IMG/VR virus record: IMGVR_UViG_3300045988_159113
Source: a virus
Reading direction: 5' to 3' (one strand)
DNA length: 64,000 nt
The notes beneath the pieces are model-generated. The model was not told the DNA's origin, ran no database searches, and worked only from the letters and a program-made list of their open reading frames with translations. A program made the translations under genes and the position numbers. Positions 579 to 52,551 of the stretch are shown one piece after another (position 1 is the stretch's first letter; each line of letters opens with the position of its first letter).

Positions 579-596
579 AAATAGTATAATTGCAAC
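579..596 (+). promoter_or_regulatory. promoter-like 18-mer AAATAGTATAATTGCAAC (copy 1)
   Basis: Perfect TATAAT at 585-590 ends 9 nt before the mature 5' end of tRNA-Lys. TTACTA at 561-566 sits 18 nt upstream. Near-identical copies are at 1219-1236 and 29330-29347. Confidence 0.5.
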
Positions 597-599
597 AAT

Positions 600-673
600 G
601 AACCTGTAGCTTAGTTGGTTAAAGCATTACACTTTTAATGTAAGGAGCCTGGGTTCAAATCCCAGCAGGTTCA
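600..673 (+). tRNA. tRNA-Lys (anticodon TTT)
   Basis: Cloverleaf read by eye: acceptor GAACCTG/CAGGTTC, D arm GCTT-AGTTGGTTA-AAGC, anticodon stem TTACA/TGTAA with loop CTTTTAA, T arm CTGGG-TTCAAAT-CCCAG, discriminator A. No encoded CCA. Confidence 0.9.
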
Positions 674-689
674 CAAATTTCTTTGTTTT

Positions 690-718
690 CCCCTTAGCTC
701 TTAGGAGCGGGGGTTTTT
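690..718 (+). terminator. GC-rich hairpin plus T5 between two tRNAs (terminator-like or processing element)
   Basis: CCCC(690-693) TTA GCTC(697-700) TTAG GAGC(705-708) GGGGG(709-713), followed by TTTTT(714-718). tRNA-Leu starts 2 nt later. Confidence 0.4.
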
Positions 719-719
719 A

Positions 720-801
720 GTCGAGATGGCGTAATCGGTAGCCGCTGAAGTCTTAAACATTTCTGCTGTAAAGCGTGCGGGTTCGAGTCCCGCTCTCGAC
801 A
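720..801 (+). tRNA. tRNA-Leu (anticodon TAA), long-variable-arm type
   Basis: Acceptor GTCGAGA/TCTCGAC, 3-bp D stem GCG/CGC, anticodon stem GAAGT/ATTTC with loop CTTAAAC, variable arm GCT-GTAA-AGC, T arm GCGGG-TTCGAGT-CCCGC, discriminator A. Confidence 0.9.
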
Positions 802-1091
802 CAATTATTGCGGTTAACAACCGAACGTAACTTCCACACAAGCCTCTTGCATTAATAAAAGATGTAAAGCTAAACAGGTGTGCTGAATCCGAAAGAAATC
901 CGACGAAAAATTACGTAATAAGTAATCGGAGAGTAAATAGAGGAGTGAGTCTAATGTTGCGAAACTTAGATTTATCGTATAATGTCAGCATTTTTCGATA
1001 ACTTTATTGGAGAATCTTAAAAGTTATCATTTTTAGATAGGTAACAACGACTTTAAGGTAGATAGCCCTGTCTTGAAATCGTATAAAGGCT

Positions 1092-1163
1092 TGCCCTATG
1101 GTGTAATTGGCAACACGACAGATTTTGGTTCTGTAATTGGAGAATCGTACTCTTCTAGGGCAA
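1092..1163 (+). tRNA. tRNA-Gln (anticodon TTG) with non-canonical T loop
   Basis: Acceptor TGCCCTA/TAGGGCA (7 perfect bp), D arm GTGT-AATTGGCA-ACAC, anticodon stem ACAGA/TCTGT with loop TTTTGGT, 4-nt variable loop, T arm GGAGA-ATCGTAC-TCTTC. The T arm has A54/T58 instead of T54/A58 and A53-T61 instead of G53-C61, so a covariance model may score it low. Confidence 0.55.
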
Positions 1164-1218
1164 CACTATATATAATGTACACGCGTACATTATTATATAT
1201 ACTTGCAATTTATAAAAA

Positions 1219-5937: not shown

Positions 5938-5949
5938 CAAGAATAAGTT

Positions 5950-15584: not shown

Positions 15585-15940
15585 AAGCAAAATATAAATA
15601 TGGAGACATTGTTTCCTTTGAACTTAATGGTGAAAAGATGCAGGGCATCGTGTACATAGTGGACCACAATGGCACGTTTGAACAAAGCACCTATCCATCT
15701 TATGACATTATGGTGAACCACATGCTGTACAAGCACATCACGGAACCGTGTGTGTCTCTTGTTCTTGCTTCACCATTTCATAATGCCAGGTATGTGTTTG
15801 ATGAGGATTTCGCTAATCGTCTCCTCTGTCTGGCTGAGAATGCTAAGGATAACTCAGTCTCAGGATTTGCTGACGAGATGATAGAAAAGGCAAAAGTCTT
15901 GATCGAGTACCAAAAACTCGCAAAGTATGGTGACCTGTAA
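15581..15940 (+). CDS. hypothetical protein
   Basis: ORF track 15569..15940. ATG 15581 forms an ATGA overlap with the previous stop. Confidence 0.6.
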   Translation: MKAKYKYGDIVSFELNGEKMQGIVYIVDHNGTFEQSTYPSYDIMVNHMLYKHITEPCVSLVLASPFHNARYVFDEDFANRLLCLAENAKDNSVSGFADEMIEKAKVLIEYQKLAKYGDL

Positions 15941-27281: not shown

Positions 27282-28233
27282 GTTCCCGCTTATCTGGACA
27301 ACGGACATAGAACACTTGAAGTTCGAGATACTTATTGAAGAACTCGGATCAAGTACTGTATGGTTTCGTGGTATGAAATATGAGAACACGGAGGAACTCC
27401 TGCGTTTTATATCCAAAGAGAACGAGAAGACGCGTAAAAAGTATAAAGAGAAATATGGCATTTTTCCGCCATATGTTATTACTCAATGTACTTTTAACAC
27501 GACTTATTCAATTTGTATTAGAACGCACAATTGCGAAAACTATGCTGTGTTTTTATTTGAAGATGGGGAAAAGCTTCCTGAGTGTATTGCAAATGGAGAA
27601 GTTCCTGTTTTTCGCAATGCAGAAATTAAAGCTAGCGATAGGTTTAATATTAAAACACTCATCAAGTTGCATAACTCCATCGTCTCAAATTATGTAGTAC
27701 GTCCTGCGATTTATTTGGATTGTTGTGATAGGTATGTTGCAAAAATAAACGGCACGCTTTATGATGCTAGGATTGTTAGAGTTGCTGATAATACTTTCTA
27801 TTTACAGTTTTTCACGATTCCCAGCATAAAACTTTTTAAGTATTATGACATAAAGTTTACAGAATACGAGCCTATCATATCTCATGACTTCCGTTTGATG
27901 GATGGCTATATCCCTGTGGATAATAAAGAGCACATCCTAAAAATTCTTGACTTCATCAATAGTAAGCGCTGTGCTATGGAGTATGCATCGTTTACTATCA
28001 AAAGCGATACTATCCTAAGTAATGGATGTATGTTCAAGATAGTCCAAACGCCAACTGGCAAGTGGTACATAAAGGGTAAGAGTGACGACTTCCCTAAGGT
28101 GTTCAAGTGCTCAAGTATGGAGGAGATCAGAGAGTTTGCGATCAAGCTATTCGGGCGAAGGATTACTGGAGTATTCCCAGAGTGCAACACCAGGGAAGAG
28201 TTGTTAACTTTAATCGAGAAGATGAAGAAATGA
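27214..28233 (+). CDS. PF6 family protein (member P)
   Basis: 339 aa. YGIFPPYVI, ILKILDFIN, TGKWYIKGKS, GVFPECNTREELLTLI. Confidence 0.8.
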   Translation: MESEKSKFPVLLYFDPCSRMIYKFPLIWTTDIEHLKFEILIEELGSSTVWFRGMKYENTEELLRFISKENEKTRKKYKEKYGIFPPYVITQCTFNTTYSICIRTHNCENYAVFLFEDGEKLPECIANGEVPVFRNAEIKASDRFNIKTLIKLHNSIVSNYVVRPAIYLDCCDRYVAKINGTLYDARIVRVADNTFYLQFFTIPSIKLFKYYDIKFTEYEPIISHDFRLMDGYIPVDNKEHILKILDFINSKRCAMEYASFTIKSDTILSNGCMFKIVQTPTGKWYIKGKSDDFPKVFKCSSMEEIREFAIKLFGRRITGVFPECNTREELLTLIEKMKK

Positions 28234-29255
28234 TAATCCAACTTTTAGAAGAACCGACTTATCTATACTTTGACCAGATGGTGATGAAAGTCTACCAGCT
28301 GCCAATAATGCATACGATACAGTTGTCGGCTGTTGAAGTTTACAACGTACGACATCCTCAAGGCATCATGTCAATGCGCGAACGAGAAGTTGACCTATGG
28401 TTTCGAGATGCGCATTACAACACGATCGGTGATCTCTTGAAGTATATAAACAAGAGAAACGAGAGAATGTTCAAATATTACGTTGAGAAATTCGGAATTT
28501 CTCCTGCTTACTTTTTGGACCAAGAAGCTGATGCGGATAATGTAGTCATTACCACTATTGTAACACATCTCGATTCTTACCGTTTTGAATGTGATGGTCG
28601 GATAGATTATGAAATAATAGAGAAGACTATTCCCGTTTTCAGTTATGCAGACATCAAAGAAGATGACCGTTTTGGCGCAGAAGTTCTGGTGAAGATGCAC
28701 AACTCCATCATCAAAAACCAGGTGATAAAACCCACCATATACAAGAACGTTTACACCGTAAGAATGGGCGATTTGTTTGCAAAAGCAAAAATCGATACGA
28801 TGGATATAGGTAGGGTGCCTGGCTATCATTTGCATTTTCTATCTTATCATGATAGGATTGTTTTTGATTATTACCACATACGATATTCTGACTTTGCTTA
28901 TGTGATCCCTGATACCGAATTGAGTAACGGGATACCTGTTGGCCCAGAAGAAGATATCAGAAAGCTCATCAACTATATCAATATGACATATTGCGTTTGT
29001 GAGGGCTCAAAGTTTAGTGTGAATGATAATATTATCATCTGCAATAAGCACAAGCTTGAAATTACACAAACGCGAAACGGCAAATGGTATATCAAGGGTG
29101 ATGTTTTACTCGCTTTTGGGTTGGATAGTATGGAGGCAATCAGAAAGGCTGCGTCTGATCTCTTCGGTAAAAAGAGGATGAACGGAGTATTCCCGGAATG
29201 CGATTCCAAGGAAGACCTCCTGCGACTCGTTGAAGTTCTTAGAAAATACAGGTGA
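28230..29255 (+). CDS. PF6 family protein (member Q)
   Basis: ORF track 28107..29255. ATG 28230 (MIIQLLEEPTYLYFDQ) is ATGA-coupled and aligns with family N-termini. FGISPAYFL, IRKLINYIN, NGKWYIKGDV, GVFPECDSKEDLLRLV. Confidence 0.8.
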   Translation: MIIQLLEEPTYLYFDQMVMKVYQLPIMHTIQLSAVEVYNVRHPQGIMSMREREVDLWFRDAHYNTIGDLLKYINKRNERMFKYYVEKFGISPAYFLDQEADADNVVITTIVTHLDSYRFECDGRIDYEIIEKTIPVFSYADIKEDDRFGAEVLVKMHNSIIKNQVIKPTIYKNVYTVRMGDLFAKAKIDTMDIGRVPGYHLHFLSYHDRIVFDYYHIRYSDFAYVIPDTELSNGIPVGPEEDIRKLINYINMTYCVCEGSKFSVNDNIIICNKHKLEITQTRNGKWYIKGDVLLAFGLDSMEAIRKAASDLFGKKRMNGVFPECDSKEDLLRLVEVLRKYR

Positions 29256-30616: not shown

Positions 30617-31227
30617 AAGTATATCGAATACAACAGAAGAATTTTAATTCCATAACGCAGTCAACACTTAGTGTAGAAGATGGGACGAAGTTTCAATTTA
30701 TACCAACAGGAAAAGAGGACATGTACAATGTCGCCTATATCACTGATGGCAGTAAAGAGAACGTCATAAGGTGTAAAAGATTAGTGAACTCTTTTCAGTT
30801 TCTACTTCCTTATGATAAGCTCCTTATCATTCTCAAGGACTTCATGGGCAAGCCGTTCGAGGAATCGACGGAGATAAAGATCAATGATTTCTATCTCTCT
30901 TGTTTCCCAAAGGGGCATCCAGAAAGACCGCTTGAGTTCTATCATGTGCTTGACTTTACAGGAACCGCGTTCAAGGTAATACGTGTAAGGATAACGGATC
31001 CATTAAACAAGATATATAATCCTCGGATTGAGTACACAACAATCGCACCGCTTACTTTGTTCAGAAGCCAGACGGGAATAGCTAGAGGTCCAGAGACTGC
31101 GCTGTTTACTGACTTCATGAAAAAAGAAGATTTCGAGCGTTATATGGATATCATAACTCTTACACTGAAAGGAGACACCAATCGTTTAATGACAAATGAA
31201 ATACTTTACAATTCAGGAGCTGACTAA
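30613..31227 (+). CDS. hypothetical protein
   Basis: ATGA-coupled ORF, 204 aa. C-terminal FTDFMKKEDFERYMDIITL weakly resembles the PF6 module. Confidence 0.7.
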   Translation: MKVYRIQQKNFNSITQSTLSVEDGTKFQFIPTGKEDMYNVAYITDGSKENVIRCKRLVNSFQFLLPYDKLLIILKDFMGKPFEESTEIKINDFYLSCFPKGHPERPLEFYHVLDFTGTAFKVIRVRITDPLNKIYNPRIEYTTIAPLTLFRSQTGIARGPETALFTDFMKKEDFERYMDIITLTLKGDTNRLMTNEILYNSGAD

Positions 31228-31651
31228 TTCATAGACAGCTAAAGCAAAGGGTCTTGATAATACTCCGGACCCACAACAGGAGCACAATCTCCGCAGGCTT
31301 ATCGAGGAGCTGCTCGATCCATTACGTGAAGCTTGGGGTAAACCGATAAAGGTAACCTCCGGGTTCCGTGGTTTCGCACTTAATAAATGCGTTAAAGGAT
31401 CAAAAAGTTCGGCTCATTGTATAGGAGCAGCTGCGGATCTTGTACCTGTAGATGGGAAGATGCCACAATTCAAAAGATTCGTGAGAGACTGGTTGACTGA
31501 AAACAATATCAAGTTTGACCAGTATATAGATGAGAGAAGTGGAAACAGTGAGTGGGTACATCTGGGACTTATCAACCAGTCAGGAAGACAGAGGAGACAA
31601 TTTCTGATGTATCGCAACAAGACGTATGTATCATTGAAGGATATATGTTAA
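31196..31651 (+). CDS. Peptidase_M15_3-type (VanY-like zinc D,D-/L,D-peptidase) endolysin with an in-frame TAG at codon 13
   Basis: The ORF track only reports 31460..31651. Reading from ATG 31196 in the same frame gives MKYFTIQELTNS[TAG 31232-34]TAKAKGLDNTP...LLDPLREAWGKPIKVTSGFRGFALN...SSAHCIGAAADL...EWVHLG. This is the full-length family signature (F...E...S.TA...g.DN.P, SG[FY]R, H..G.A.D, W.H) running across the TAG. Confidence 0.75.
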
Positions 31652-32533: not shown

Positions 32534-32743
32534 TTGATGAGTAGAAAGAGAAGAAACAATTTCACAAGTCTCGAACTTGATAAACGCAAGTATGTCGTAG
32601 TGGATGAAGAAGACGGGAGCATATCCATCTATAACATCACACCGCGATATCATATCTGCATTGTCAATTATAAGTCGAAAGACCAGGAGTACGCGCGAAA
32701 TTGTATCATGGAAACTTTAGACTATTTGAAAAGAGACATATGA
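32534..32743 (+). CDS. hypothetical protein
   Basis: ATG ORF, 69 aa. Confidence 0.55.
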   Translation: MMSRKRRNNFTSLELDKRKYVVVDEEDGSISIYNITPRYHICIVNYKSKDQEYARNCIMETLDYLKRDI

Positions 32744-33516
32744 GAAGAGTGAGACATTTAACCGTTAGAAGCCGCAATGTATCATGTCGGCCTCTACGAG
32801 AGTTAGAGGTTCCCGTTCGTACTCTGTACAGAATGGGAAGTGCCACACCGATTGAACGAATCTTTCGTTCTCCTTTACGTTATCTTGAGATAAACACAGC
32901 CCATGGCTGTCTTATCTCTGGTGATAAGATAAAGATGAAAAGAGCTTTCAATGAGTGTGGCGTACATACTGCGGAGTGGTTCATCGCTCATAACAGAGTC
33001 GATGCCAGAGGTAAAATTCAGCGTTGGCTTCCAACCTGGGGTGTCATCATTGCAAAGAGGTTGAACTCATCGGGTGGCCGTGGTATCTATCTTATACGAA
33101 ATGTTGGAGACTTGGACCAGATCCACGACGACATCACGAAGTATATTTTCGAGAGATATTACAACTACACGAAAGAGTACCGCGTACATGTCAGCAAATT
33201 CGGATGTTTCTATACATCAAGAAAGATGTTGAGAAATACCGCAACTGTGAGATGGCACAGACATTCTGAAAACTCCGTTTTCATAAATGAAGAAAACCCG
33301 ATGTTTGACAAGCCGACTAACTGGGACGAGATAGTCGCCGATTGTATCAAAGCCCTCAAGCATATGCAGCTTGACATCGCAGCGTTCGATGTCAAGTGTA
33401 CAAGAGACGGGCGCTTTATACTCTTGGAGAGTAATTCCGCACCAGCACTTGGTGAGCAAGGCATCGAGAAATACAAAAACGAATTAAAGAAAATCATAAA
33501 CGATAAATTAAGATGA
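32740..33516 (+). CDS. ATP-grasp ligase (RimK-like)
   Basis: ORF track 32701..33516. ATG 32740 is ATGA-coupled. GVIIAKRLNSSGGRGIYLI, KEYRVHV, and DIAAFDVKCTRDGRFILLESNSAPAL are typical ATP-grasp blocks. Confidence 0.7.
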   Translation: MRRVRHLTVRSRNVSCRPLRELEVPVRTLYRMGSATPIERIFRSPLRYLEINTAHGCLISGDKIKMKRAFNECGVHTAEWFIAHNRVDARGKIQRWLPTWGVIIAKRLNSSGGRGIYLIRNVGDLDQIHDDITKYIFERYYNYTKEYRVHVSKFGCFYTSRKMLRNTATVRWHRHSENSVFINEENPMFDKPTNWDEIVADCIKALKHMQLDIAAFDVKCTRDGRFILLESNSAPALGEQGIEKYKNELKKIINDKLR

Positions 33517-34361
33517 GTGAGTTCGGTTATACAAACTATCACACAATTTACAAGAGTGTTGGAGATGTTGATCATGCGATGGGTGAGGATTCTTGTTTTC
33601 ATACCATCACCAAGGATTCCGGTTTGAAGATGATGAACAATGTGATCACTGTGCGGTTCTATGCTACCATTGACTACATACGGGATAATCAGAACAATAA
33701 CTATTGCCCGTTTAGCGAGGACGAGATCCGCCAGTATCTGCACATTATCCAGACTTACAGACCCTTTGAGTTCAAGCTTGACACATGTTTCGGAACCGCA
33801 AACGATATAGAAGATAGCGACGACGACTACGACGATGATGTTGAGTACAAGTACTATGAGCTTGAGTTGAAGATCAACGACTCGGTACTCTGGAACAAGT
33901 TCATCTTGAAAATGGTTCGCCCGTTATATGAATATCCGTTCAACTTCGCACTTCGCGATACCTTCAAAATGATGACTATCCCGAAGTTCAGAGAGTATGG
34001 GTTGTTCAATATCTATATGATGGTCGGCTATATCTTCAAGACTACTAGCTACATCTCAGTTTGTGATGATCAGTTTGTTTGTTCTTGTTATCGGAACATT
34101 CCGCAGTTCATGAAGAAGGCAGACCTCATCAAGCGTATTGAGAGTATGAGCCAGGCACATTTGGCAGGAGAGACAAGAACTCCTGAATTCAATAATGTTG
34201 TCTCATATTCTGAGAGTGATTGCGGTGACTTCGGCGACTGGCTCGACAATCGATACTTCAACACAACAAACGTGAGAGAGGTGGAGTACTGGTTCGACGA
34301 GGAGATGTTCGAGGAGAGAGTAGAAATTTATTCTGAACTTATAGAAAGATTTGTGAAGTAA
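33513..34361 (+). CDS. hypothetical protein with an acidic insert
   Basis: ATGA-coupled ORF, 282 aa. Contains DIEDSDDDYDDDVEY. No recognisable domain. Confidence 0.7.
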   Translation: MSEFGYTNYHTIYKSVGDVDHAMGEDSCFHTITKDSGLKMMNNVITVRFYATIDYIRDNQNNNYCPFSEDEIRQYLHIIQTYRPFEFKLDTCFGTANDIEDSDDDYDDDVEYKYYELELKINDSVLWNKFILKMVRPLYEYPFNFALRDTFKMMTIPKFREYGLFNIYMMVGYIFKTTSYISVCDDQFVCSCYRNIPQFMKKADLIKRIESMSQAHLAGETRTPEFNNVVSYSESDCGDFGDWLDNRYFNTTNVREVEYWFDEEMFEERVEIYSELIERFVK

Positions 34362-35008
34362 TGAGAAAATTGTATTGTGTAGGATGGGGTAGAAGCTATG
34401 CCAACTGGTTCCGTGATGTTGAATTGACCGGAGATTTTGAGACTCCCAAGTTTCAGATCGAAGATGCGGATATTGTCCTCTTTACTGGTGGTGAGGATGT
34501 GAGCCCTTATCTTTATGGTAAGGCTCCACACCCTACGAGTTATTGGACAACATCAAGAGACGAGATGGAAGTTGAAGCCTTCAAGCGTATACGTCCCGAT
34601 GCTCTGGCATACGGTACATGTCGTGGCCTGCAACTGCTTAACGTTATGAACGGCGGCATTCTCTGTCAGGATGCTACTGATCACTGGTGTTCAGGTACGC
34701 ATGAGATACACAACGACACTGAGTCGTACCGTATCACATCGCTGCATCATCAGATGGTGTATCCTTTCGATCTCAATCCTGACTATTATGACATTCTGTT
34801 TTGGAGTACTCCACGCAGTAAGCATTACGAAGGGGATGGGATCGATCCGACACTCTACCACAAGTTTGGCGAGCCTGAGATTGTGCTTTATCACAAGCCA
34901 GGATTACCCAAGTGTCTTGGAGTGCAAGGACACCCTGAGATGATGTCTCCCAATAGCCCGGTTGTGAACATGTTGAATAACTTAATAGATGACATTCTTA
35001 AAAAATAA
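34361..35008 (+). CDS. class I glutamine amidotransferase-like / peptidase C26 (gamma-glutamyl hydrolase-like)
   Basis: TAATG-coupled. Nucleophile elbow GTCRGLQLLNV and catalytic GVQGHPE. Confidence 0.7.
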   Translation: MRKLYCVGWGRSYANWFRDVELTGDFETPKFQIEDADIVLFTGGEDVSPYLYGKAPHPTSYWTTSRDEMEVEAFKRIRPDALAYGTCRGLQLLNVMNGGILCQDATDHWCSGTHEIHNDTESYRITSLHHQMVYPFDLNPDYYDILFWSTPRSKHYEGDGIDPTLYHKFGEPEIVLYHKPGLPKCLGVQGHPEMMSPNSPVVNMLNNLIDDILKK

Positions 35009-35012
35009 AAAG

Positions 35013-35924
35013 ATGGATTTAAACTTTTCTGAAAAACTTTATGAGCTTCTCGGCTCTGGTGTTAGTTCACGTTACAATTTTAACAACTTCCTTGATGACG
35101 ATGAACCCGATGATAATTTCGGTGAATTCCTGGAGAAGGTGAAGATCGGATCCGATCCTGAGCTGTTTATCATAAACACAAAGACAGGATCTGTTGTGTC
35201 TTCTATCGGATTGATACCTGGAGTGAAGGGTGCGCCTTGGGTGGACAAGTCGTGGGTCAAAGGTTATGGCTTGGAGACTGACAACATCCTTGCGGAGTTT
35301 AATATTCCACCCGCTACATCTTGTGAAGCTTTTGTCGACAGTATGGAGTTCATGAAGGATTACATAGACAAGTTTGTCAAGTCTAAGAATCCAGACCTTG
35401 GCATCGCGCACAAGGCAAGTGCAATGGTGCCAGACGATCAACTTCAGAGCGAAGAGGCGAAGCTTTTCGGGTGCAGTGTCGACTACAACGCATACACAGA
35501 AAACGCAAACCCAAAACCTTGCGGAGAAGCTACGAACCTAAGATCGATAGGTTGTCACATTCATGTTTCATATCCACGCAAATCTCAAGTAAAGAGTATA
35601 AGCTTGGTTAAGTATATGGACGTATTCGTAGGTATACCTTCTGTGATTCTTGATGCAGGAGAGGATGCAGTAAAACGTCGTGAACTGTACGGAAAGGCTG
35701 GATGTTTCAGGCTTACCAGGTATGGGATGGAATACCGACCTTTATCTGGCCGGTTCCTGGCAAACACAGATCTTGAAGAGTTCATGTACAAGGCAACACT
35801 TCACGCCCTCGGCGCTTGGTTCTATGATTATAGACTCCCAAGTGCTGATGATGTTCAGCGTTGCATCAATACAGGAGACATTAATCTCGCAATCCAACTC
35901 ATCAATGATTACAAACTTGTTTAA
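35013..35924 (+). CDS. phage-type COOH-NH2 ligase (amidoligase)
   Basis: ORF track 34989..35924; ATG 35013 lies just after the upstream stop. IGSDPELFI, YGLETDNILAEFNIPPA, LRSIGCHIHVS, and CFRLTRYGMEYRPLS resemble the phiEco32-like COOH-NH2 ligase family. Confidence 0.6.
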   Translation: MDLNFSEKLYELLGSGVSSRYNFNNFLDDDEPDDNFGEFLEKVKIGSDPELFIINTKTGSVVSSIGLIPGVKGAPWVDKSWVKGYGLETDNILAEFNIPPATSCEAFVDSMEFMKDYIDKFVKSKNPDLGIAHKASAMVPDDQLQSEEAKLFGCSVDYNAYTENANPKPCGEATNLRSIGCHIHVSYPRKSQVKSISLVKYMDVFVGIPSVILDAGEDAVKRRELYGKAGCFRLTRYGMEYRPLSGRFLANTDLEEFMYKATLHALGAWFYDYRLPSADDVQRCINTGDINLAIQLINDYKLV

Positions 35925-35951
35925 CTTTTAGAAAAGAAAGAGAGGTCTATT

Positions 35952-37316
35952 ATTTGTGGCATTTTTGGATACATAAAGTCTAAACCAGAACCGTTTGACT
36001 TTATGGAGTTCTGCACTTTAGGAGTGCATAACGATACAAGAGGAAAAGATTCTGTCGGTATTTATATCGATGGACAAACTGAGTATTATTGTAAGGGCAA
36101 GAACAATAGCCTGTTCTCGGAGTTTATCTCCAAGAGCAGGCTATTGCAGTCTGTAGAGGTTGCACAAGTTGCATATGGTCATGACCGTGCAGCTTCCATT
36201 GGCACCGTATCTATTGAGACTGCACAGCCCGTAGTGTTAAAAGAAGATGACAAGATCACATATGTGCTTATGCACAATGGCACCATCTATAATTATGAGG
36301 ATCTAGCCAAAAAGTATATTCCAGATGTGGATATCAAGGGGATGACTGATTCCCAGGTTATGGCGCGCATATTCTACAAAGCAGGATATGATGCACTCAA
36401 TGAATATATCGGTGGTGCCGTGTTTGCCATTATCGATTACCGCGGAGAAAAACCAAAGTATCTATTCTGGCAAGGGCACAGTAAGAACACGCAGTATTCA
36501 CAAACCAGCCAGCAGGAAGAACGCCCGCTGTTCTTCTTGAAGAGTAAAGGCGAGATGATGTTTTCATCTCTTGATACATATCTTGACGCATTCAGGAGAC
36601 AATCAACAAAGTTGGTGCCGACTCCAAACTTGCTGATAGAGTATGATCCAGAGACTGAGGAGTTTATCTCACTTGAAGAGTATGACAGGAAGAATTGCTT
36701 TCAGACTAAGCCATACGTCGCAACCACTACCACATATTACGGAAACAACAACTATGGAAGTAGTACGTGTAATTATAGCCATAGCACTAATCGCGGCACT
36801 TCTTGCTATTCAAGCGGTTATGTAAACACAGACACGCACACCGGACAATGTCGCAGAGGCGCAAGTCTTTTGCATGGCAGCTATAGCATCAGCACCTATG
36901 GCAACATATCGGAAAGCGCCAACCAGAACGGATCGAATTATATGACCATGTGGTTCTTCAATGGTATACTCATGAAGAACGAGCAAGCATTCATATATCT
37001 CACAAAGTTCTGTAAGGAGTGCGGCATTAGTATTGATGAGTGTTTCAAATGGTATGATGACTTGGTTTATTATCTCTCGCCTTACCCTTATCGCGAGAAG
37101 AAGATCGGAGGAATTCCCTTCATGTTCAAAACCAATGATCCCGCAGGCGGTGAAGAGTACACAGGAGATGTACTTTATCCGTTTTCTACATACTCCAAGC
37201 GATATGTTAATGGTTCCTATGTATCAACAAGGACATCAACATTTATCGAATCGCTTGAAGCGTATAACAAAACAAAAGACGATAAGTTAGATATAGACGT
37301 TTTAATGAAAGTATAA
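35952..37316 (+). CDS. class II (Ntn) glutamine amidotransferase with C-terminal extension; non-ATG (ATT) start
   Basis: The ORF track starts at internal ATG 36003. The frame is open from 35925 and reads I-CGIFGYIKSK...RGKDSVGIY...HNGTIYNY, the canonical MCGIxG N-terminus. The only initiator-like codons before Cys are ATT 35949/35952. AAAGAGAGG lies at 35937-45. Confidence 0.7.
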   Translation: MCGIFGYIKSKPEPFDFMEFCTLGVHNDTRGKDSVGIYIDGQTEYYCKGKNNSLFSEFISKSRLLQSVEVAQVAYGHDRAASIGTVSIETAQPVVLKEDDKITYVLMHNGTIYNYEDLAKKYIPDVDIKGMTDSQVMARIFYKAGYDALNEYIGGAVFAIIDYRGEKPKYLFWQGHSKNTQYSQTSQQEERPLFFLKSKGEMMFSSLDTYLDAFRRQSTKLVPTPNLLIEYDPETEEFISLEEYDRKNCFQTKPYVATTTTYYGNNNYGSSTCNYSHSTNRGTSCYSSGYVNTDTHTGQCRRGASLLHGSYSISTYGNISESANQNGSNYMTMWFFNGILMKNEQAFIYLTKFCKECGISIDECFKWYDDLVYYLSPYPYREKKIGGIPFMFKTNDPAGGEEYTGDVLYPFSTYSKRYVNGSYVSTRTSTFIESLEAYNKTKDDKLDIDVLMKV

Positions 37317-38534
37317 ATGGCAGAAATTATTTCAGATTTTAAGAATGGCGCTCCTGTTATTGCAAGGGGAACAGAGTTTGTAGACAACAAAGTTGCACTT
37401 TTACACGACAAGAAGAGGTCAACAAAAATGTTGGTAGAGGTCTCAGAAAAGACTCTCCCGTATATAGCATTTGCTAATACGATGGGTGCATATGTGATCA
37501 AGTCGCAGTATACCGAGGATGAGCTTTTCTATCTTATGAACACTATGGGAACCGGCAGTTTCCCGTATACATTCGAGAGGCGATACGAAGCAATGGACAG
37601 CTTCAACCTCTTCAATGGTCATGAGGTGATAGAGAAGGATATCGAATTTGAACTGGCTAAGTTCATGCCTTACACTTTTGGTATTGAGTACGAAACGTCT
37701 ATGGGATATATTCCTCAGGATGTTTGTTTCAGAAATGGTCTCATCCCTTTGAGGGATGGGTCCATCTCTGGCTTGGAGTATTCAACAACCGTGATGCAGG
37801 GAAACGATGGACTCAATCTTGTCTATCAGCAGCTTGAGGCTCTGCGTAAGTTTACCTATTTCAACAAGGAGTGTTCCCTTCATGTTCATATGGGAGGCTA
37901 TCCTATTGATCCTATGGCGATCTATGCCTTATATAGAGTTTGCTATTTCTTGCAGGAAGAGATGGCAGAGTTCTTGCCCGACTGGACTTTCGAGACTTCC
38001 AAGTATAAGAAGAGCGGGAAGGACTATTGCCATAAGCTCGCAAACTACAAGACATTTGGCGAGCTCTATGAGAATATCGCACAGCAGAAGTTCATGGGAA
38101 GCCTGGAGCAGCCGCATCCAAGAGATGAGGAGAGAAGCCATAAGTGGGATTGCACAAGCAGATACACATGCGTCAACTTGTTGAACCTCATGTGTTATGA
38201 CAAGTGCAAGACTGCGGAGTTCCGATTCCTGCGTCCTACCTATAACTTCAAGAAGATCTATTACTGGCTCGCAATCTTCAATGCCATACTCAAGTATAGC
38301 GAAGACCTCTTCGCTAAGAGTGACAAGACAGAGAAGGGTATCGAGCAGTTGATCTATGACGACAACACCTCCATCTATCTAATTGCCAGCTCGGTTTATC
38401 CCAAACCTCTGGCAGATAAGATCGAGGATTTCGTCAACAAGCTGTATGTAGCAGTAGGTAATCAGAGAACAAACGGTGATCTCTATGGCAAAGATACGGC
38501 TATTGAGGATGCCATTATCGGGACCAGGTTATGA
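37317..38534 (+). CDS. amidoligase (Amidoligase_2-like, GCS2/glutamine-synthetase fold)
   Basis: 405 aa. FGIEYETS, IPLRDGSISGLEYST, CSLHVHMGGY, and TAEFRFLRPT blocks. Confidence 0.6.
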   Translation: MAEIISDFKNGAPVIARGTEFVDNKVALLHDKKRSTKMLVEVSEKTLPYIAFANTMGAYVIKSQYTEDELFYLMNTMGTGSFPYTFERRYEAMDSFNLFNGHEVIEKDIEFELAKFMPYTFGIEYETSMGYIPQDVCFRNGLIPLRDGSISGLEYSTTVMQGNDGLNLVYQQLEALRKFTYFNKECSLHVHMGGYPIDPMAIYALYRVCYFLQEEMAEFLPDWTFETSKYKKSGKDYCHKLANYKTFGELYENIAQQKFMGSLEQPHPRDEERSHKWDCTSRYTCVNLLNLMCYDKCKTAEFRFLRPTYNFKKIYYWLAIFNAILKYSEDLFAKSDKTEKGIEQLIYDDNTSIYLIASSVYPKPLADKIEDFVNKLYVAVGNQRTNGDLYGKDTAIEDAIIGTRL

Positions 38535-46883: not shown

Positions 46884-46901
46884 TATTATGGTTTTATTTT
46901 A

Positions 46902-46926
46902 GGGAGGGGTTCGCCCCTCCCTTTTT
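46902..46926 (+). terminator. rho-independent terminator
   Basis: GGGAGGGG-TTCG-CCCCTCCC followed by TTTTT. Confidence 0.8.
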
Positions 46927-46955: not shown

Positions 46956-47969
46956 ATGCCACTTGACTTTGAAATAGAACCAATCCTGAACAAGGACTTC
47001 TTGCTTGGACATTATACCGAGGAAACGTATATGTCCCACTATACGGGCCTACCTATAAAGAAGGGCCTGTTCCTTTCTCCGCTTCGTGAGGATAGGAAAC
47101 CGTCAGTCGCTTTTTACAGAACGAGTAATGGGCAACTTATCTATAAGGATTTCGGAGACAATACACACGTTAGCTTTATTGGGCTTGTGATGAAGATGTA
47201 TTCGCTGAGTTATTACCAGGCGATACGAAAGATTGCCGAAGACTTCGGACTTGTAAAAAGAAAGAGTCAGGAAGCAATAGCAACAAAACCGATTAAGGTA
47301 ATCAATACAAGATTTGAAGAATCGAAGCCTTCAATTATAAATGTTGAAGTGCAGGATTTCACAGATCGGGATATCGCGTGGTGGAGACAATACAACATAA
47401 GTGTTGAACTGCTGCAAAAGTTCCATGTCTATTCTTGCAAGTATGTCTTCCTAAACTCTAGAATCTTCGCTGAATGTACGGATAAAAACCCGATCTATGG
47501 GTATTATTTCGGAAAGAAAAACGGAGAGGAGAAATGGAAGATATACATGCCAAAGAGAACGGAATGGAAATGGATTTGCAACACAGGAAACGAAACGATA
47601 CAAGGATATCGTGAGCTTCCACCTCGCGGAAATGTTTGTGTCATTACGAAATCTTTAAAAGATGTATTGTGTCTTAGGTCGTTCGGCATCTATGCAGTCG
47701 CCCCTAACAGTGAACACTTATTCGTATCTGATGAGATACTGGAGAATCTAAAGCGTAGATTCAAGACTATCGTAGTCTTATATGATAATGACCACACCGG
47801 CATGAGGCGAACCGTAGAGATACGGCAACAACATCCCGAGCTGTTTTACGCGCTGATTCCTAAATGTTCAGGCTGTAAAGATCTATCTGATTATGTGAAA
47901 ACAAACGGAGTAGAAAAAGCTAAAAGTTTAATCAATGAGTACGTCAAATACATCAGGAGTTCCAAATAG
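46956..47969 (+). CDS. DnaG-like TOPRIM DNA primase
   Basis: SPLREDRKPSVAFY (zinc-ribbon-region remnant), then TOPRIM VCVITKSLKDVLCL...APNSE...VVLYDNDHTGMR. Stop is TAG, with a TGA 13 codons further on. Confidence 0.75.
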   Translation: MPLDFEIEPILNKDFLLGHYTEETYMSHYTGLPIKKGLFLSPLREDRKPSVAFYRTSNGQLIYKDFGDNTHVSFIGLVMKMYSLSYYQAIRKIAEDFGLVKRKSQEAIATKPIKVINTRFEESKPSIINVEVQDFTDRDIAWWRQYNISVELLQKFHVYSCKYVFLNSRIFAECTDKNPIYGYYFGKKNGEEKWKIYMPKRTEWKWICNTGNETIQGYRELPPRGNVCVITKSLKDVLCLRSFGIYAVAPNSEHLFVSDEILENLKRRFKTIVVLYDNDHTGMRRTVEIRQQHPELFYALIPKCSGCKDLSDYVKTNGVEKAKSLINEYVKYIRSSK

Positions 47970-48225
47970 TTTCTTTGGTCATACAATCAGAGCGACGCAA
48001 AAACAGCTTGAGCTATTGCTTGGATTTGATCATAATGCAAGCAAAGACGGGAAAAGTCGGTGCATCTGGCATAAGACAATCGACGATATGCCTTTTTGTG
48101 TGTATGATTGGAAGATGGAAGCAGAGCCAGACGAAACTATAGACTGGCACATTGGAGCGAGAAACGAAGAAGAAAGTAAAAAGATACAACGAATTTTGAA
48201 TAATGTAAAAACTAATGAATTATGA
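47935..48225 (+). CDS. hypothetical protein
   Basis: ATG ORF, 96 aa, overlapping the primase end by 35 nt. Confidence 0.5.
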   Translation: MSTSNTSGVPNSFFGHTIRATQKQLELLLGFDHNASKDGKSRCIWHKTIDDMPFCVYDWKMEAEPDETIDWHIGARNEEESKKIQRILNNVKTNEL

Positions 48226-48812
48226 GACCACCTTTTTTTAAACCATCATGTAAAGACACATCGTGCAAGGTAACATTCCCCGATGGCCACACATAGGAAT
48301 TTGAGACAATCGAACAGGCAGCAGAAGCAACTGGTGTATCACTCGCAGCATTGAAGAAGCGCTGCAAGTATCCAGGGAAGGAAACGAAAGACGGGATACT
48401 CTGCGAGTATCTCAACCCTGCTATGCTCCGCAAGGTTCGTAATAAAGCGAACAGAAGCAAAGGCTGCTCTTTCGAGCGCGATATTATCAATAGGCTCAAA
48501 GAGGAAGGATTTGAGGAATGTGTATCCTCTCGTCAGTACTCTCGAGCTATGGATAAGGCAAAGATTGATGTATGCGATCCAAGCGGTAAACTTCCGGTAT
48601 ATATTCAAGCGAAGTATACGACAAGCACGCCACAGTATACAAAGATCAAGAATGCCTGCCCGTTTGATGATAAGCCTTTCGTGACTATCTGGAAGCAGGC
48701 AACTAGAGATGGGAGTAACAGTCCCGGAACGATTGTGATGTTAGACTACGAGTTTTTTATTCAACTTTTAAAAAGTTTTGTCAAGGATGATTGCAATAAT
48801 AGCAGTATATGA
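48222..48812 (+). CDS. HTH + Hjc/RecU-like PD-(D/E)XK Holliday-junction resolvase with an in-frame TAG at codon 25
   Basis: The ORF track gives 48351..48812 with a TTG start. The same frame opens at ATG 48222 (ATGA overlap with the upstream stop): MRPPFFKPSCKDTSCKVTFPDGHT[TAG 48294-96]EFETIEQAAEATGVSLAALKKRC..., then KGCSFERDIINRLKEEGFE...KIDVCD...VYIQAKY (E...D...QxK nuclease core). Confidence 0.65.
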
Positions 48813-50118: not shown

Positions 50119-52551
50119 ATGCCTAGGCAGGAAGGAAAAACAGACATTTTTGTCAACGACTTATTGCGTAAGTCAGGGATCAGTCTCTCATCACAAGATG
50201 CAGATATAAATATTGACCTAAGGGATGCGTTGCAAACTGCATCCAAGAATGGGACAGGCAATATAGGCTATCCTGATTATTGTGGAATTGTCAACGGGTA
50301 TGTCTTCGTTATAGAAGATAAGGCGAGCGTTTACGATCACGCCAAGTATCTTGACGATAAAGAGACAGAACTTGATATGTCCCAGCAAGCCATCAAGAAG
50401 TACGCACTCAATGGTGCTGTTCATTATGCCATTAAGATAATGGCAAGTGCACCGTATGAGCAACTGTTCGGTTTTGGAGTTTCCGGAAATGAAGATGGGT
50501 ATCGTATCACTCCGTTCTTTCTAAGATCGAGAGAAACGAAACCTATGATTCTTGAACCAGTCAATGATTTCAACTCATTCTCTCATAGCAATATCGGAAC
50601 GTATTATTGTATGAATGTTTTGAAAGAGGAGATTGATGTGAATAAAACAGAAGAAGAAATACAGAGAGATGCAGCAGAACTTCATGAGTTCTTGCGAAGT
50701 TATGGATCTCTTACAACAGAACAGAAGCCAATAATTGTTTCTGGAATTTTGATTGCTTTATCTGAAATTGATTACAAGAATTTTGACATTAATACTTTGA
50801 TTTGTGATAAAACATCAAGTGATGGAGAAAAGATTTTTGTAGCAATTAAAAAGGCACTCAAAAGAATTTCTGTTGAAAATAGTTTAATACTTCGACAGTT
50901 CTCGCTCATCGCTTCTAACATTCAAATCAACACAACAAATTCAAAACTTGGCAAGACTCCGCTAAGATTTTTCACTGAGTTTTTATACAATCGTATTTTC
51001 AAAAACATAAAATACGTTGCATCTCCTACAGATTTCATTGGTAGATTTTATAATGAATTCATATCATATTCTGGTGGAGACGGTCAGACTTTGGGTATCA
51101 TTTTGACGCCTACACATATCACACAACTCTTTTGTGATCTTGTTAACCTTACAGATAAGGATAAAGTATTCGATCCATGTTGCGGAACTGGTGGGTTCTT
51201 GATTGCTGCTTTACATAACATGATAGAGAAAAGCGGAAAGACAGACGAGGAAGTACGAAGGATTAAAAACAACCAGCTGTTCGGCATTGAAATGCAAGAC
51301 TATATGTACACAGTTGGTTTTACTAATCTATTGTTGCGTAGTTGTAACACAAACAATTTGATTTGTGATAGTTTTTTCAACATCAATACTAATCATTTAT
51401 CAGGAAATGGATTCACTGTTGGAATGATTAATCCTCCTTATTCTCAAGGCTCATCTAAAGATAAAACGCTATATGAAATTAATTTCATATTTCGTATGCT
51501 TGGATGTTTAGCACCAGGAGCTAGGGGAATTGCAATTGTTCCACAATCTACAATGGTTGGAAATTCAAAAGCTGAACTTGAAATCAAAAGAGAAATTCTT
51601 GAACGCCATACTTTAGAGGGAGTGATTACTTTAAATCCTCAGACATTCTTCGGTGTGGGAGTTAATCCTTGTATCTGTATATTTACAGCAGGAACTCCAC
51701 ACAGAAAGGACAAGTTTGTCAAGTTTATTGATTTTACTGACGATGGATATGTTGCAGAACCAAAACGTGGATTGGTTAAAACTGAAAGTGCAGATGCTAA
51801 AAAAGCACATATGTTACAAGTGTGGAATGACGAAATTGTTGATGATGATATATGTGTGAAACATAAAATAAATTTTAATGATGATTGGATTTACAATGCT
51901 CAAAAAAACAATGAACTAAATTTAATAAATGAATTATTTGTTCCATATAAAGAAAAAGAAGAATTAACAAAAATAATATCAAAGTTAGACACCTTAATTT
52001 TATCAAAGCCAAATATTCCGAGGCCAACAATAGTAGGAAAAGCTACTGCCGATTTTCATATTGATCAAATATTTGATGTGAAAATGTCGAAGTCTATAAA
52101 TAATAACAAATTAAACAGTACACCTGGAAATATTCCATATATTACAAGGACAGGATTAAATAACGGCATCCTGAAATTTGTATGTGAACAGGGAATCGAA
52201 AAACTTAATCCTGGCAATGTCATAACAATTGGGGTAGATACACAAACTGTATTCTATCAAAAACAAGCTTTCTATTGTGGAAACAATGTTCTTTCTTTAT
52301 CATCCGAAAACGTTGATCAATACATCGGCGTTTTCATAGTTGGGATATTAGACCAGATTGTAAAAAAGAAATACAACTATGGATATGGCGCAACATTAAC
52401 AAGGATTAAAAATCTCGAAATCCCTCTTCCCATCACTTCCGACGGAAAGCCAGACTGGGAATTTATGTCTGACTATATAAAAACACAATTTCAAATTGTA
52501 TTTGAGGAAGAACTGAAACGACTAAAATCTAAACTCGATGAGTGGTATTGA
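50119..52551 (+). CDS. fused nuclease-methyltransferase-specificity enzyme (type IIG-like R-M-S)
   Basis: The N-terminus GYPDYCGIVNGYVFVIEDK is a PD...(E/D)xK, HSDR_N-like. Gamma-class N6-adenine MTase motifs FDPCCGTGGFLI (I) and MINPPYSQG (IV). The C-terminal 220 aa resemble one HsdS target-recognition domain. Confidence 0.75.
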   Translation: MPRQEGKTDIFVNDLLRKSGISLSSQDADINIDLRDALQTASKNGTGNIGYPDYCGIVNGYVFVIEDKASVYDHAKYLDDKETELDMSQQAIKKYALNGAVHYAIKIMASAPYEQLFGFGVSGNEDGYRITPFFLRSRETKPMILEPVNDFNSFSHSNIGTYYCMNVLKEEIDVNKTEEEIQRDAAELHEFLRSYGSLTTEQKPIIVSGILIALSEIDYKNFDINTLICDKTSSDGEKIFVAIKKALKRISVENSLILRQFSLIASNIQINTTNSKLGKTPLRFFTEFLYNRIFKNIKYVASPTDFIGRFYNEFISYSGGDGQTLGIILTPTHITQLFCDLVNLTDKDKVFDPCCGTGGFLIAALHNMIEKSGKTDEEVRRIKNNQLFGIEMQDYMYTVGFTNLLLRSCNTNNLICDSFFNINTNHLSGNGFTVGMINPPYSQGSSKDKTLYEINFIFRMLGCLAPGARGIAIVPQSTMVGNSKAELEIKREILERHTLEGVITLNPQTFFGVGVNPCICIFTAGTPHRKDKFVKFIDFTDDGYVAEPKRGLVKTESADAKKAHMLQVWNDEIVDDDICVKHKINFNDDWIYNAQKNNELNLINELFVPYKEKEELTKIISKLDTLILSKPNIPRPTIVGKATADFHIDQIFDVKMSKSINNNKLNSTPGNIPYITRTGLNNGILKFVCEQGIEKLNPGNVITIGVDTQTVFYQKQAFYCGNNVLSLSSENVDQYIGVFIVGILDQIVKKKYNYGYGATLTRIKNLEIPLPITSDGKPDWEFMSDYIKTQFQIVFEEELKRLKSKLDEWY

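What the first reader, a model, noticed from the sequence alone, without database searches (positions are those of the whole stretch)
48222..48812. Second in-frame TAG, in an HTH-resolvase gene whose ATG is coupled to the upstream stop
- The ORF track starts this gene at a TTG (48351). The same frame is open from ATG 48222, which forms an ATGA overlap with the stop of 47935..48225. That overlap is the standard coupling used throughout this window.
- The only interruption is TAG 48294-96.
- The sequence across it, FPDGHT-TAG-EFETIEQAAEATGVSLAALKKRC, reads as one continuous small HTH (G..x.F.s.eeAa..tGvs...i). A start downstream of the TAG would cut that HTH in half.
- The rest is an Hjc/RecU-like PD-(D/E)XK core (SFERDIINRLKEEGFE...IDV...IQAKY).
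- Two independent genes with late-type roles (lysis; junction resolution for packaging) each carry one TAG. This argues for recoding or regulated readthrough rather than random decay.
Basis: partly seen in the sequence, partly recalled or inferred. Interest (0 to 1): 0.8.

Follow-up and report, generated by a model that had tools for sequence, protein, structure and literature searches.

The report
Amber codon translated in phage nuclease gene
The in-frame TAG is real and is almost certainly read as glutamine, because this ~194-kb gut phage carries its own amber-suppressor tRNA and uses TAG as a sense codon throughout its late genes; the unusual part is that this nuclease family keeps exactly one TAG, always at the very start of the gene, which looks like a translational timing gate.

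Summary
ATG 48222 overlaps the upstream TGA, and one TAG (48294-96, codon 25) interrupts an otherwise open 196-codon frame. Outside the window, the same phage lineage has late genes full of in-frame TAG (44 in 3460 codons) and a tRNA with anticodon CUA. TAG swaps mainly with CAG/CAA between near-identical genomes, so TAG means Gln (genetic code 15), a known trait of gut phages. The gene encodes a NUMOD-like HTH fused to an Hjc-like PD-(D/E)xK nuclease. It lies in the replication module after the primase, not in a late module. What is new: among 48 distinct homologues, 45 carry exactly one TAG, always 5'-proximal (codons 4-6, or 25/28 in the window's clade). The remaining ~160 codons never have one, and neighbouring genes are mostly TAG-free. 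TAG even terminates the primase. The window's lysin has the same layout (a single TAG at codon 13). The best reading is an amber gate that delays translation until the suppressor tRNA is available. That recoding occurs is well supported; the gating role is inferred. This is a new member of a known kind, with an interesting position-conserved twist.

The parts
48222..48812 (+). Full gene for a 196-aa NUMOD-like HTH / Hjc-like nuclease, read through one TAG (ATG 48222, stop TGA 48810-12 followed directly by TAA)
   Evidence: database protein P0001 (196 aa, 97% id) was called across the TAG; homologous loci
48294..48296 (+). In-frame TAG, codon 25, decoded as Gln (inferred); proposed amber gate
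   Evidence: Same position in L003-L008, L097, L098 and the 70%-id L096; TAG<->CAG/CAA accounts for 13 of 17 substitutions in late genes; tRNA-CUA present in the lineage
48222..48225 (+). ATGA start/stop overlap with upstream ORF 47935..48225 (translational coupling)
   Evidence: 23 such junctions in the window
48261..48371 (+). NUMOD-like beta-strands plus helix-turn-helix DNA-binding module (about residues 14-50); the TAG lies within it
   Evidence: PF22083 I-HmuI_NUMOD-like in 13/17 family members, best E 9e-5; AF2 model shows strands 7-27 then helices 30-47, low confidence
48447..48776 (+). Hjc-like PD-(D/E)xK nuclease core (about residues 76-185), with invariant E85 (48474-76), D116 (48567-69), Q129 (48606-08) and K131 (48612-14)
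   Evidence: Alignment A2; profile vs PDB hits Hjc 1hh1/4tkd/4tkk/2eo0 at E~1e-3 with E/D/E-x-K aligned; phrog_244 at 5e-5; PDDEXK_15 in 9/17 members
48351..48353 (+). TTG, the first canonical start after the TAG (the standard-code ORF call); starting here would cut the HTH
47935..48225 (+). Upstream 96-aa ORF whose stop overlaps the ATG; conserved in L096
46956..47969 (+). DNA primase ending in TAG (47967-69), with a back-up TGA 13 codons later; shows TAG acts as a stop in early genes
46901..46922 (+). Intrinsic terminator upstream of the primase; no comparably strong terminator between primase and nuclease gene, so they are probably one transcript
31196..31651 (+). Second TAG-bearing gene of the window: a Peptidase_M15_3 lysin with a single TAG at 31232-34 (codon 13)
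   Evidence: the 78%-id homologue has TAG at the same codon and the standard-code 64%-id homologue has CAG
600..1164 (+). Phage tRNA cluster Lys(UUU), Leu(UAA), Gln(UUG); there is no suppressor inside the window (tRNA-CUA lies ~17 kb upstream of the window's start in sister contig 155098, L121:1647-1723)

Best explanation
The window is the early/middle, standard-code-compatible part of a ~194-kb human-gut phage that reassigns TAG to glutamine (genetic code 15) by means of its own tRNA(CUA). Gene 48222-48812 encodes a 196-aa protein. Its N-terminus is a NUMOD-like beta-strand/HTH DNA-binding module and its C-terminus is an Hjc-like PD-(D/E)xK nuclease, probably a branched-DNA or junction-processing enzyme. 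Translation starts at ATG 48222, coupled to the upstream ORF's stop. At codon 25 the ribosome meets TAG. While only host decoding is available it terminates, releasing a harmless 24-aa peptide. Once the phage suppressor tRNA is present, Gln is inserted and the full nuclease is made. The gene sits in what appears to be the primase transcript, so the single 5'-proximal TAG would act as a translational gate, delaying a potentially dangerous nuclease independently of transcription. Shown here: the TAG is real and conserved; the sequence upstream of it is coding; the lineage decodes TAG as a sense codon and has a tRNA-CUA; the TAG in this family is restricted to the 5' end. Inferred: Gln identity at this particular site, the timing of suppressor expression, the gating function, and junction-resolvase activity.
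For: Recoding in this lineage: in sister contig 155098, minus-strand late ORFs are broken into TAG-terminated fragments under code 11. With TAG read through they fuse into ORFs of 1503 aa (16 TAG), 360 aa (4 TAG) and 1597 aa. That is 44 TAG in 3460 late codons, against 0 in 17,102 codons of 60 window ORFs.
Suppressor: a tRNA with anticodon CUA at L121:1647-1723 (ARAGORN; Rfam tRNA 47 bits against a threshold of 29, loop CUCUAAC). Exact copies are present in three contigs of the lineage.
Meaning of TAG: 13 of 17 TAG<->sense substitutions between near-identical genomes are CAG/CAA. At the lysin's TAG codon, a standard-code homologue has CAG.
Relative MT835492: coding density 0.45 under code 11 and 0.87 with TAG read through.
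The gene itself: the TAG is at the same codon in 9 independent assemblies and in a 70%-id lineage, and the upstream peptide is conserved through synonymous and conservative changes.
Family pattern: 45 of 48 distinct homologues have exactly one TAG, at codons 4-6 (25/28 in the window's clade) and never in the remaining ~160 codons. At 90% clustering, 16 of 19 clusters carry it, with CAA/CAG counts of 11 (5') against 72 (rest).
Start codon: TAG-less lineages start with the same M-A/K-K motif in the same place, and L036 has Q where L041 has TAG. In 23 of 37 distinct sequences the first canonical start after the TAG falls inside or beyond the HTH.
Context: neighbouring genes are mostly unaffected by TAG read-through. 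The primase ends in TAG. A terminator lies before the primase, with no comparably strong one before the nuclease gene.
Literature: Borges et al. propose that recoded stops delay late and lysis genes until the code switch (bioRxiv 10.1101/2021.08.26.457843).
Against: No expression, proteomic or ribosome-profiling data exist, so the timing of tRNA-CUA expression is unknown. The suppressor was found in sister contigs (87-99% identical), not in the window itself. At the window's TAG column homologues are not uniformly Gln (Q4, E5, K4, H1, N1), so the residue at this site is inferred from genome-wide behaviour. In 9 of 37 distinct sequences a GTG or TTG lies within 0-4 codons after the TAG, so in those lineages a downstream start cannot be excluded. 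Three lineages do without the TAG, so the gate is dispensable. The many TAG-bearing sequences share ancestry, so there are few independent events: one origin at codons 4-6, one at codon 25/28, plus the lysin. Nuclease family assignment rests on sub-threshold profile matches (E~1e-3), and the AF2 model was poor (pLDDT 46.6). The 121-kb recoded relative MT835492 shows no CTA tRNA.
Confidence: 0.72

Rival explanations
1. TAG is simply a neutral synonymous Gln codon in a code-15 phage. The gene is translated only when suppression is active, or suppression is constitutive, and the 5' position of the TAG has no regulatory meaning. It would be an ancestral codon that happens to persist.
For: The lineage demonstrably uses TAG as a sense codon and has tRNA-CUA. 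Most TAG-bearing homologues share ancestry, so the codon-4-6 TAG may be a single inherited event. Three lineages lost it without obvious consequence.
Against: The TAG persists across lineages only 38-48% identical, where flanking N-terminal residues and spacing have changed repeatedly (MKK#T, MAKK#L, MGKT#V, MSKSN#N, MAKRI#KE…). None of the 72 other Gln codons in 19 clusters is TAG. The window's clade lacks the codon-4-6 site but has a TAG at another 5' site. The lysin shows the same single 5' TAG, conserved at 78% identity. The surrounding module avoids TAG and uses it as the primase stop.
Confidence: 0.17
2. The TAG is a genuine stop and the upstream ATG is a mis-assigned start or a tiny leader ORF. 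The nuclease would be translated from a downstream start (TTG 48351 or ATG 48426 here; GTG/TTG just after the TAG in other lineages), giving a protein without a complete HTH in the window's phage.
For: Borges et al. attributed single in-frame stops in some genes to wrong N-terminal extensions. The raw pattern (in-frame ATG upstream of a 5' bounding stop) is common by chance in this window. 9 of 37 distinct sequences have a GTG or TTG within 0-4 codons after the TAG. ATG 48426 would still leave the whole nuclease core intact.
Against: The 24 codons upstream of the TAG are conserved as protein between the window and the 70%-id lineage, and only synonymous changes occur among the close relatives. 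The TAG interrupts a domain that homologues encode without a break. In 23 of 37 sequences no canonical start preserves the domain, and in 8 the first start lies beyond the whole HTH. TAG-less lineages use the same ATG. The phage has the machinery to read TAG.
Confidence: 0.07
3. The gene is a decaying pseudogene, or the TAG is an assembly or sequencing error.
For: A single stop in an otherwise open frame is what a recent nonsense mutation looks like.
Against: The same TAG occurs in 9 independent assemblies from different samples and in a 70%-id lineage, with purifying selection on both sides of it. 45 of 48 homologues carry one TAG and no other lesions.
Confidence: 0.01
4. Dual-product switch. 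Early in infection an N-terminally truncated nuclease (from TTG 48351 or ATG 48426, lacking the intact HTH) is made. Later, suppression adds the full DNA-binding module, changing the enzyme's targeting.
For: In the window's clade, in-frame starts exist downstream of the TAG and upstream of the nuclease core.
Against: In most other lineages there is no start between the TAG and the nuclease core, and in several the first start lies inside the core. No ribosome-binding signal is evident at 48351 or 48426.
Confidence: 0.03

Closest known systems
Stop-codon (TAG->Gln, genetic code 15) recoding in human- and animal-gut phages: crAss-like, Lak, Jade, Sapphire, Agate and similar clades (Borges et al., bioRxiv 10.1101/2021.08.26.457843; Peters et al., PMC9523058; Yutin et al., PMC7886860)
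   Same: Late genes are dense in in-frame TAG. The replication block is in standard code. The phage encodes a tRNA-CUA. TAG exchanges with CAG/CAA. A lysis gene carries a recoded stop. The genome size (~194 kb) is in the range of the large recoded clades.
   Different: Here the focus is one replication-module nuclease family that keeps exactly one TAG, pinned to the first few codons across lineages as divergent as ~40% identity. The papers I read describe gene-level enrichment of recoded stops, not a position-conserved single codon, and one of them dismisses single N-terminal stops as start-codon errors. Which named clade this phage belongs to was not determined.
Archaeal Holliday-junction resolvase Hjc (PF01870; PDB 1hh1, 4tkd, 2eo0) and phage PDDEXK_15 endonucleases
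   Same: The profile match covers the catalytic core with E…D…(E/Q)-x-K aligned. The core is of similar size (~110 aa).
   Different: Matches are below Pfam gathering scores. The third acidic residue is Gln (invariant Q129). There is an added N-terminal NUMOD-like HTH that Hjc lacks. No structural or biochemical evidence for junction specificity.
NUMOD / I-HmuI- and I-TevI-type DNA-binding modules of homing endonucleases
   Same: A short beta-strand followed by an HTH with the G-x-x-F-x-S-I-x-E-A-A-x-x-T-G pattern; weak Pfam hits to PF22083 and PF07453.
   Different: The gene is a syntenic core gene next to the primase in all relatives, not a sporadically inserted mobile element. Its nuclease domain is PD-(D/E)xK, not GIY-YIG or HNH.
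phAss-1 / 'Phassvirus' TAG-recoded gut phages (PMC10607447)
   Same: TAG->Gln with tRNA-Sup-CTA genes; TAG in virion genes and in some DNA-processing genes.
   Different: Different group (~136 kb, predicted Clostridia hosts, three suppressor tRNAs, 36 tRNAs). No DNA similarity to the window in the phage collection.

Membership tests
TAG-recoded (code 15) phage | In-frame TAG inside conserved protein-coding genes | tested here: met
   Nuclease gene codon 25 and lysin codon 13 in the window; late ORFs with 4-16 TAG in sister contigs
TAG-recoded (code 15) phage | Coding density or ORF length rises sharply when TAG, but not other stops, is read through | tested here: met
   Met in the late block of the lineage (fragments fuse to 1503/360/1597 aa) and in relative MT835492 (0.45 to 0.87; TGA read-through gives 0.47). 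Not met inside the window itself (0.89 to 0.94, no better than TGA or TAA), which is the standard-code block.
TAG-recoded (code 15) phage | Phage-encoded suppressor tRNA with anticodon CUA | tested here: met
   L121:1647-1723, ARAGORN and Rfam; exact copies in 3 contigs of the lineage. Absent from the window and not detected in MT835492.
TAG-recoded (code 15) phage | TAG corresponds to Gln (aligns or exchanges with CAA/CAG) | tested here: met
   13 of 17 TAG<->sense substitutions are CAG/CAA; lysin TAG = CAG in a standard-code homologue; Q in 4 of 15 homologues at the nuclease TAG column
TAG-recoded (code 15) phage | Peptide evidence for Gln at TAG | not testable with these tools
   Needs proteomics
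Recoding as temporal gate (Borges model) | Recoded stops confined to genes needed late; early genes standard-code; suppressor made after infection starts | tested here: inconclusive
   The distribution fits: no TAG in 60 window ORFs, TAG as the primase stop, and a TAG in the lysin. Expression timing cannot be tested, and the nuclease gene lies in the replication module.
Hjc-type Holliday junction resolvase (PF01870) | Significant match to the family model | tested here: inconclusive
   Window protein E 0.14, 12.5 bits against a cut-off of 21.1; 5 of 17 members match at E<=1, best 1.1e-3; family profile vs PDB Hjc E 9e-4
Hjc-type Holliday junction resolvase (PF01870) | Catalytic E…D…E-x-K constellation | tested here: inconclusive
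   E85, D116 and K131 are invariant and aligned to Hjc, but the third acidic position is an invariant Gln (Q129)
Hjc-type Holliday junction resolvase (PF01870) | Dimeric fold and four-way-junction-specific cleavage | not testable with these tools
   The AF2 model was too poor (pLDDT 46.6); biochemistry is required
NUMOD-like DNA-binding module (PF22083 / PF07453) | Match to the family model over the N-terminal ~45 residues | tested here: inconclusive
   13 of 17 members hit PF22083 (best E 9e-5); the window protein gives E 0.054, 13.5 bits against a cut-off of 27

The most novel reading that the evidence does not exclude
A single, position-conserved amber codon placed within the first few codons is a dedicated 'gate codon'. 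It lets a code-switching phage impose late timing on individual genes (a DNA-branch nuclease, a lysin) that are embedded in early or middle, standard-code transcripts. Selection would hold it at the 5' end so that premature translation aborts after a 3-24-aa peptide. It has arisen at least twice in this nuclease family (codons 4-6, and codon 25/28) and again in the lysin.
Probability: 0.5. Interest if true: 0.65.

Novelty: new member of a known kind. Interest (0 to 1): 0.45.

Why it matters
The practical point is annotation. Standard-code gene callers truncate this gene (153 aa from TTG 48351) and destroy the lysin, whose first canonical start is 75 codons in. Windows from the standard-code half of a recoded phage give no coding-density signal to warn the annotator. 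The biological point is that the family-wide, 5'-pinned single TAG is one of the cleaner comparative arguments that recoded stops are used as regulatory switches on individual genes and are not merely tolerated. It also offers a simple experimental handle (TAG-to-CAG swaps, or suppressor tRNA deletion) for testing the code-switch timing hypothesis, which is still unproven.

Tried and rejected
- blastn of the region against GenBank phages found no match.
- Window-wide TAG read-through and coding-density tests gave no signal. This was misleading, because the window is the standard-code block.
- A suppressor tRNA was sought in the window, in MT835492, and in L086-L120, and was not found. It turned up only after walking about 17 kb upstream of the window's start.
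- Inferring the amino acid by aligning late proteins to MT835492 failed: they are too divergent at 22-24% identity.
- Inferring it from 120 lysin homologues also failed, because the column is variable (D71/A13/E10/Q5) and the Q in close database entries merely reflects code-15 gene calling.
- The structure prediction was poor.
- Other possible 5'-TAG genes in L102 were unconvincing and were not generalised.
- There is no conserved read-through context around the TAG: the 3' base is a, g, c or t.
- Frameshifting, hopping and reinitiation were considered and rejected, because the ATG is always in frame with the body of the gene and no landing or restart codon is conserved.
- The promoter-like repeat AATAGTATAATTGCAA is not significantly enriched and is absent near the gene.

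Full report
**1. Observation**

- ATG 48222-24 shares its last two bases with the TGA stop (48223-25) of the 96-aa ORF 47935..48225.
- The frame is open to TGA 48810-12 except for TAG 48294-96 (codon 25).
- A standard-code ORF finder starts the gene at TTG 48351.
- ATGA junctions are common in the window (23 of them).

Taken alone, an in-frame ATG upstream of the stop that bounds an ORF is not unusual here. It occurs at 3 of 18 TAG-bounded frames, 14 of 51 TAA-bounded frames and 7 of 28 TGA-bounded frames. The case therefore has to rest on comparative evidence.

**2. What the protein is**

The product has two domains.
- Residues ~76-185 are a PD-(D/E)xK nuclease core. The evidence is phrog_244 'RusA-like HJ resolvase' at 5e-5, and a family profile against the PDB that hits the archaeal Hjc structures 1hh1, 4tkd, 4tkk and 2eo0 at E~1e-3. 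The invariant E85, D116, Q129 and K131 align to Hjc's E…D…E-x-K. Pfam PDDEXK_15 matches 9 of 17 members and Hjc matches 5 of 17.
- Residues ~14-50 resemble the NUMOD-like strand-plus-HTH module of I-HmuI. 13 of 17 family members match, best E 9e-5.

All these matches are below the curated thresholds, and the AF2 model was poor (pLDDT 46.6). The fold assignment is therefore probable, not proven, and junction specificity is untested.

The gene is not in a late module. It follows an SSB-like gene and the primase (46956-47969) and precedes an NT5C-like gene and a methyltransferase. A strong terminator lies before the primase (46901-22), with no comparably strong one between the primase and this gene.

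**3. Homologues**

tblastn against GenBank phages found two unannotated human-gut contigs, about 42% identical and syntenic. In both, the match runs straight across the TAG position. An IMG/VR scan added 80 loci, and Logan assemblies added three more.

Reading every 5' end in frame gave an unexpected result. Of 48 distinct proteins, 45 contain exactly one TAG, and it is always 5'-proximal.
- In the divergent lineages it lies at codons 4-6 (MKK#TNT…, MAKK#LNT…, MGKT#VNT…, MSKSN#NLNT…, MAKRI#KELNT…).
- In the window's clade it lies at codon 25, and at codon 28 in L096.
- No TAG occurs anywhere in the remaining ~160 codons.

At 90% clustering, 16 of 19 clusters carry the TAG. The same genes contain 11 CAA/CAG codons in the first 25 codons and 72 beyond. 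At 70% clustering, 7 of 8 clusters carry it.

The three TAG-less lineages begin with the same M-A/K-K motif at the same place, and L036 has Q where L041 has TAG.

In 23 of 37 distinct sequences the first ATG/GTG/TTG after the TAG falls inside or beyond the HTH. In 8 it falls beyond the whole domain. In 9 a GTG or TTG lies within four codons of the TAG.

In the window's clade the 24 codons before the TAG are conserved as protein against the 70%-identity lineage L096 (MPRKRPPFMHPPLTDTSCRITYPDGHT#EFE…). Among the 96-99% relatives they differ only by synonymous changes.

These results exclude a sequencing error or a pseudogene. They argue strongly against a mis-called start, which is the explanation Borges et al. 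gave for some single N-terminal stops.

**4. Is TAG translated in this phage?**

Inside the window there is no genome-wide signal. TAG read-through joins almost nothing, 60 long ORFs contain no TAG in 17,102 codons, and no suppressor tRNA is present. That is because the window is the early/middle block.

I walked outward along a sister contig. IMGVR_UViG_3300045988_155098 is 197 kb and 87-100% identical to the window over the genes compared, and the genome is about 194 kb. About 15-20 kb past the window's right end, the minus-strand genes are shattered into TAG-terminated fragments under code 11. With TAG read through they fuse into ORFs of 1503 aa (16 TAG), 360 aa (4 TAG) and 1597 aa, with 44 TAG in 3460 codons.

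About 17 kb to the left of the window's start lies a tRNA with anticodon CUA, at L121:1647-1723. ARAGORN detects it and Rfam scores it at 47 bits against a threshold of 29, with the anticodon loop CUCUAAC. It is surrounded by more TAG-rich genes, and exact copies occur in the three contigs of the lineage that reach that region.

Several results point to Gln.
- Between near-identical contigs, 13 of 17 TAG<->sense substitutions are to CAG or CAA.
- The window's second TAG gene is the Peptidase_M15_3 lysin (31196-31651, TAG at codon 13, first canonical start 75 codons downstream). It has TAG at the same codon in a 78%-identity homologue and CAG there in a standard-code 64%-identity homologue.
- The 121-kb relative MT835492 goes from 0.45 to 0.87 coding density when TAG is read through.
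- A public pipeline has already called this very gene across the TAG as Q: protein P0001 does not translate from its DNA under code 11.

The phage is thus a TAG->Gln recoded phage of the kind described by Borges et al., Yutin et al. and Peters et al..

**5. Mechanism**

Shown here:
- the TAG is real and conserved;
- the sequence on both sides of it is under protein-level selection;
- the lineage decodes TAG as a sense codon and encodes tRNA-CUA;
- TAG also serves as a true stop in the early block (the primase in the window and in L096);
- within this nuclease family the TAG is confined to the first codons.

Inferred: translation initiates at ATG 48222, coupled to the upstream ORF. Under host decoding it aborts at codon 25. 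When the phage tRNA-CUA is available, Gln is inserted and the full HTH-nuclease is produced. The gene appears to share a transcript with the primase, so a 5' amber codon would give temporal control that transcription cannot. Its position at the very start would minimise wasted synthesis and avoid producing a free DNA-binding fragment.

Two further points argue for selection on the presence of a 5' TAG as opposed to neutral drift. The window's clade lacks the codon-4-6 site yet has a TAG at a different 5' site, and the lysin shows the same one-TAG-near-the-start layout.

The caveats are these:
- the many TAG-bearing sequences represent only a few independent events;
- three lineages do without the TAG;
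- the timing of suppressor expression is unknown;
- MT835492 shows no CTA tRNA in 121 kb.

**6. Comparison and novelty**

The system is a member of a known kind: code-15 recoding with a phage suppressor tRNA, late genes recoded and replication genes standard.

In the papers I could read, I did not find a single recoded stop that is conserved in position at the extreme 5' end of a specific replication-module nuclease across lineages as divergent as ~40% identity. If the gate reading is right, it refines the Borges timing model from the level of modules to the level of individual genes.

I rate recoding and full-length translation at about 0.9, and the gating function at about 0.5-0.6. Overall interest is moderate.

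Noticed in passing
window 31196-31651: Peptidase_M15_3 lysin with a single in-frame TAG at codon 13 (31232-34) between an invariant S and T-A. The first canonical start is 75 codons downstream. A 78%-id homologue (L125) has TAG at the same codon, and a standard-code 64%-id homologue (L126) has CAG there.
   Followed up: yes
window 46956-47969 (stop 47967-69): The primase terminates at TAG, with a back-up TGA 13 codons later. The 70%-id lineage L096 also ends its primase in TAG. Under suppression the primase would gain a short C-terminal extension.
   Followed up: partly
window 1-70: The first ~70 nt are extremely GC-rich (ggagcgcgtcgccggcgtggcgg…) in a 39% GC genome. Sister contig 152645 ends within ~355 bp of this point. 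This may be a genome terminus, a packaging end or an assembly edge.
   Followed up: no
window 600-1164; L102 9365-9643; L086 906-2172: The tRNA cluster Lys(UUU)-Leu(UAA)-Gln(UUG) is structurally variable between near-identical genomes. The window has a 290-nt spacer between Leu and Gln, contig 155098 has 4 nt, and contig 152645 lacks Leu and has 1.1 kb between Lys and Gln.
   Followed up: no
window 15927-29255: Fourteen tandem plus-strand ORFs of ~260-380 aa. Thirteen are mutual paralogues at 24-46% identity, with no PHROG match. Two of them end in TAG.
   Followed up: partly
window 3412-7975: A second paralogous gene family (phrog_7964 / phrog_5070, function unknown), with at least three copies.
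   Followed up: no
window 32701-38534: A cluster of amidoligase / COOH-NH2 ligase / glutamine amidotransferase-like / RimK-like genes, possibly a peptide- or nucleotide-modification pathway.
   Followed up: no
window 580-595 and 1220-1235: An exact 16-nt repeat AATAGTATAATTGCAA flanks the tRNA cluster, with a 2-mismatch copy at 29331. It looks promoter-like but is not enriched beyond chance.
   Followed up: partly
window 50119-52551: An 810-aa N6-adenine methyltransferase/specificity fusion sits in the lowest-GC stretch of the window (0.34), possibly a recent acquisition.
   Followed up: no
L083 12157-12221 (MT835492.1): A 65-nt tRNA-Thr(UGU) detected by Rfam but missed by ARAGORN. This heavily TAG-recoded 121-kb contig shows no CTA-anticodon tRNA at all.
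   Followed up: partly
L121 1647-1723 (contig IMGVR_UViG_3300045988_155098, ~164.7 kb): The amber-suppressor tRNA has A1-U72 and A73 and is not a close copy of the phage's own tRNA-Gln(UUG). Which synthetase charges it is unclear.
   Followed up: no
L099 1277-4465 and L101 991-3763: More distant relatives carry arrays of 17-18 tRNA genes on the opposite strand, but no CTA anticodon within the stretches held.
   Followed up: no
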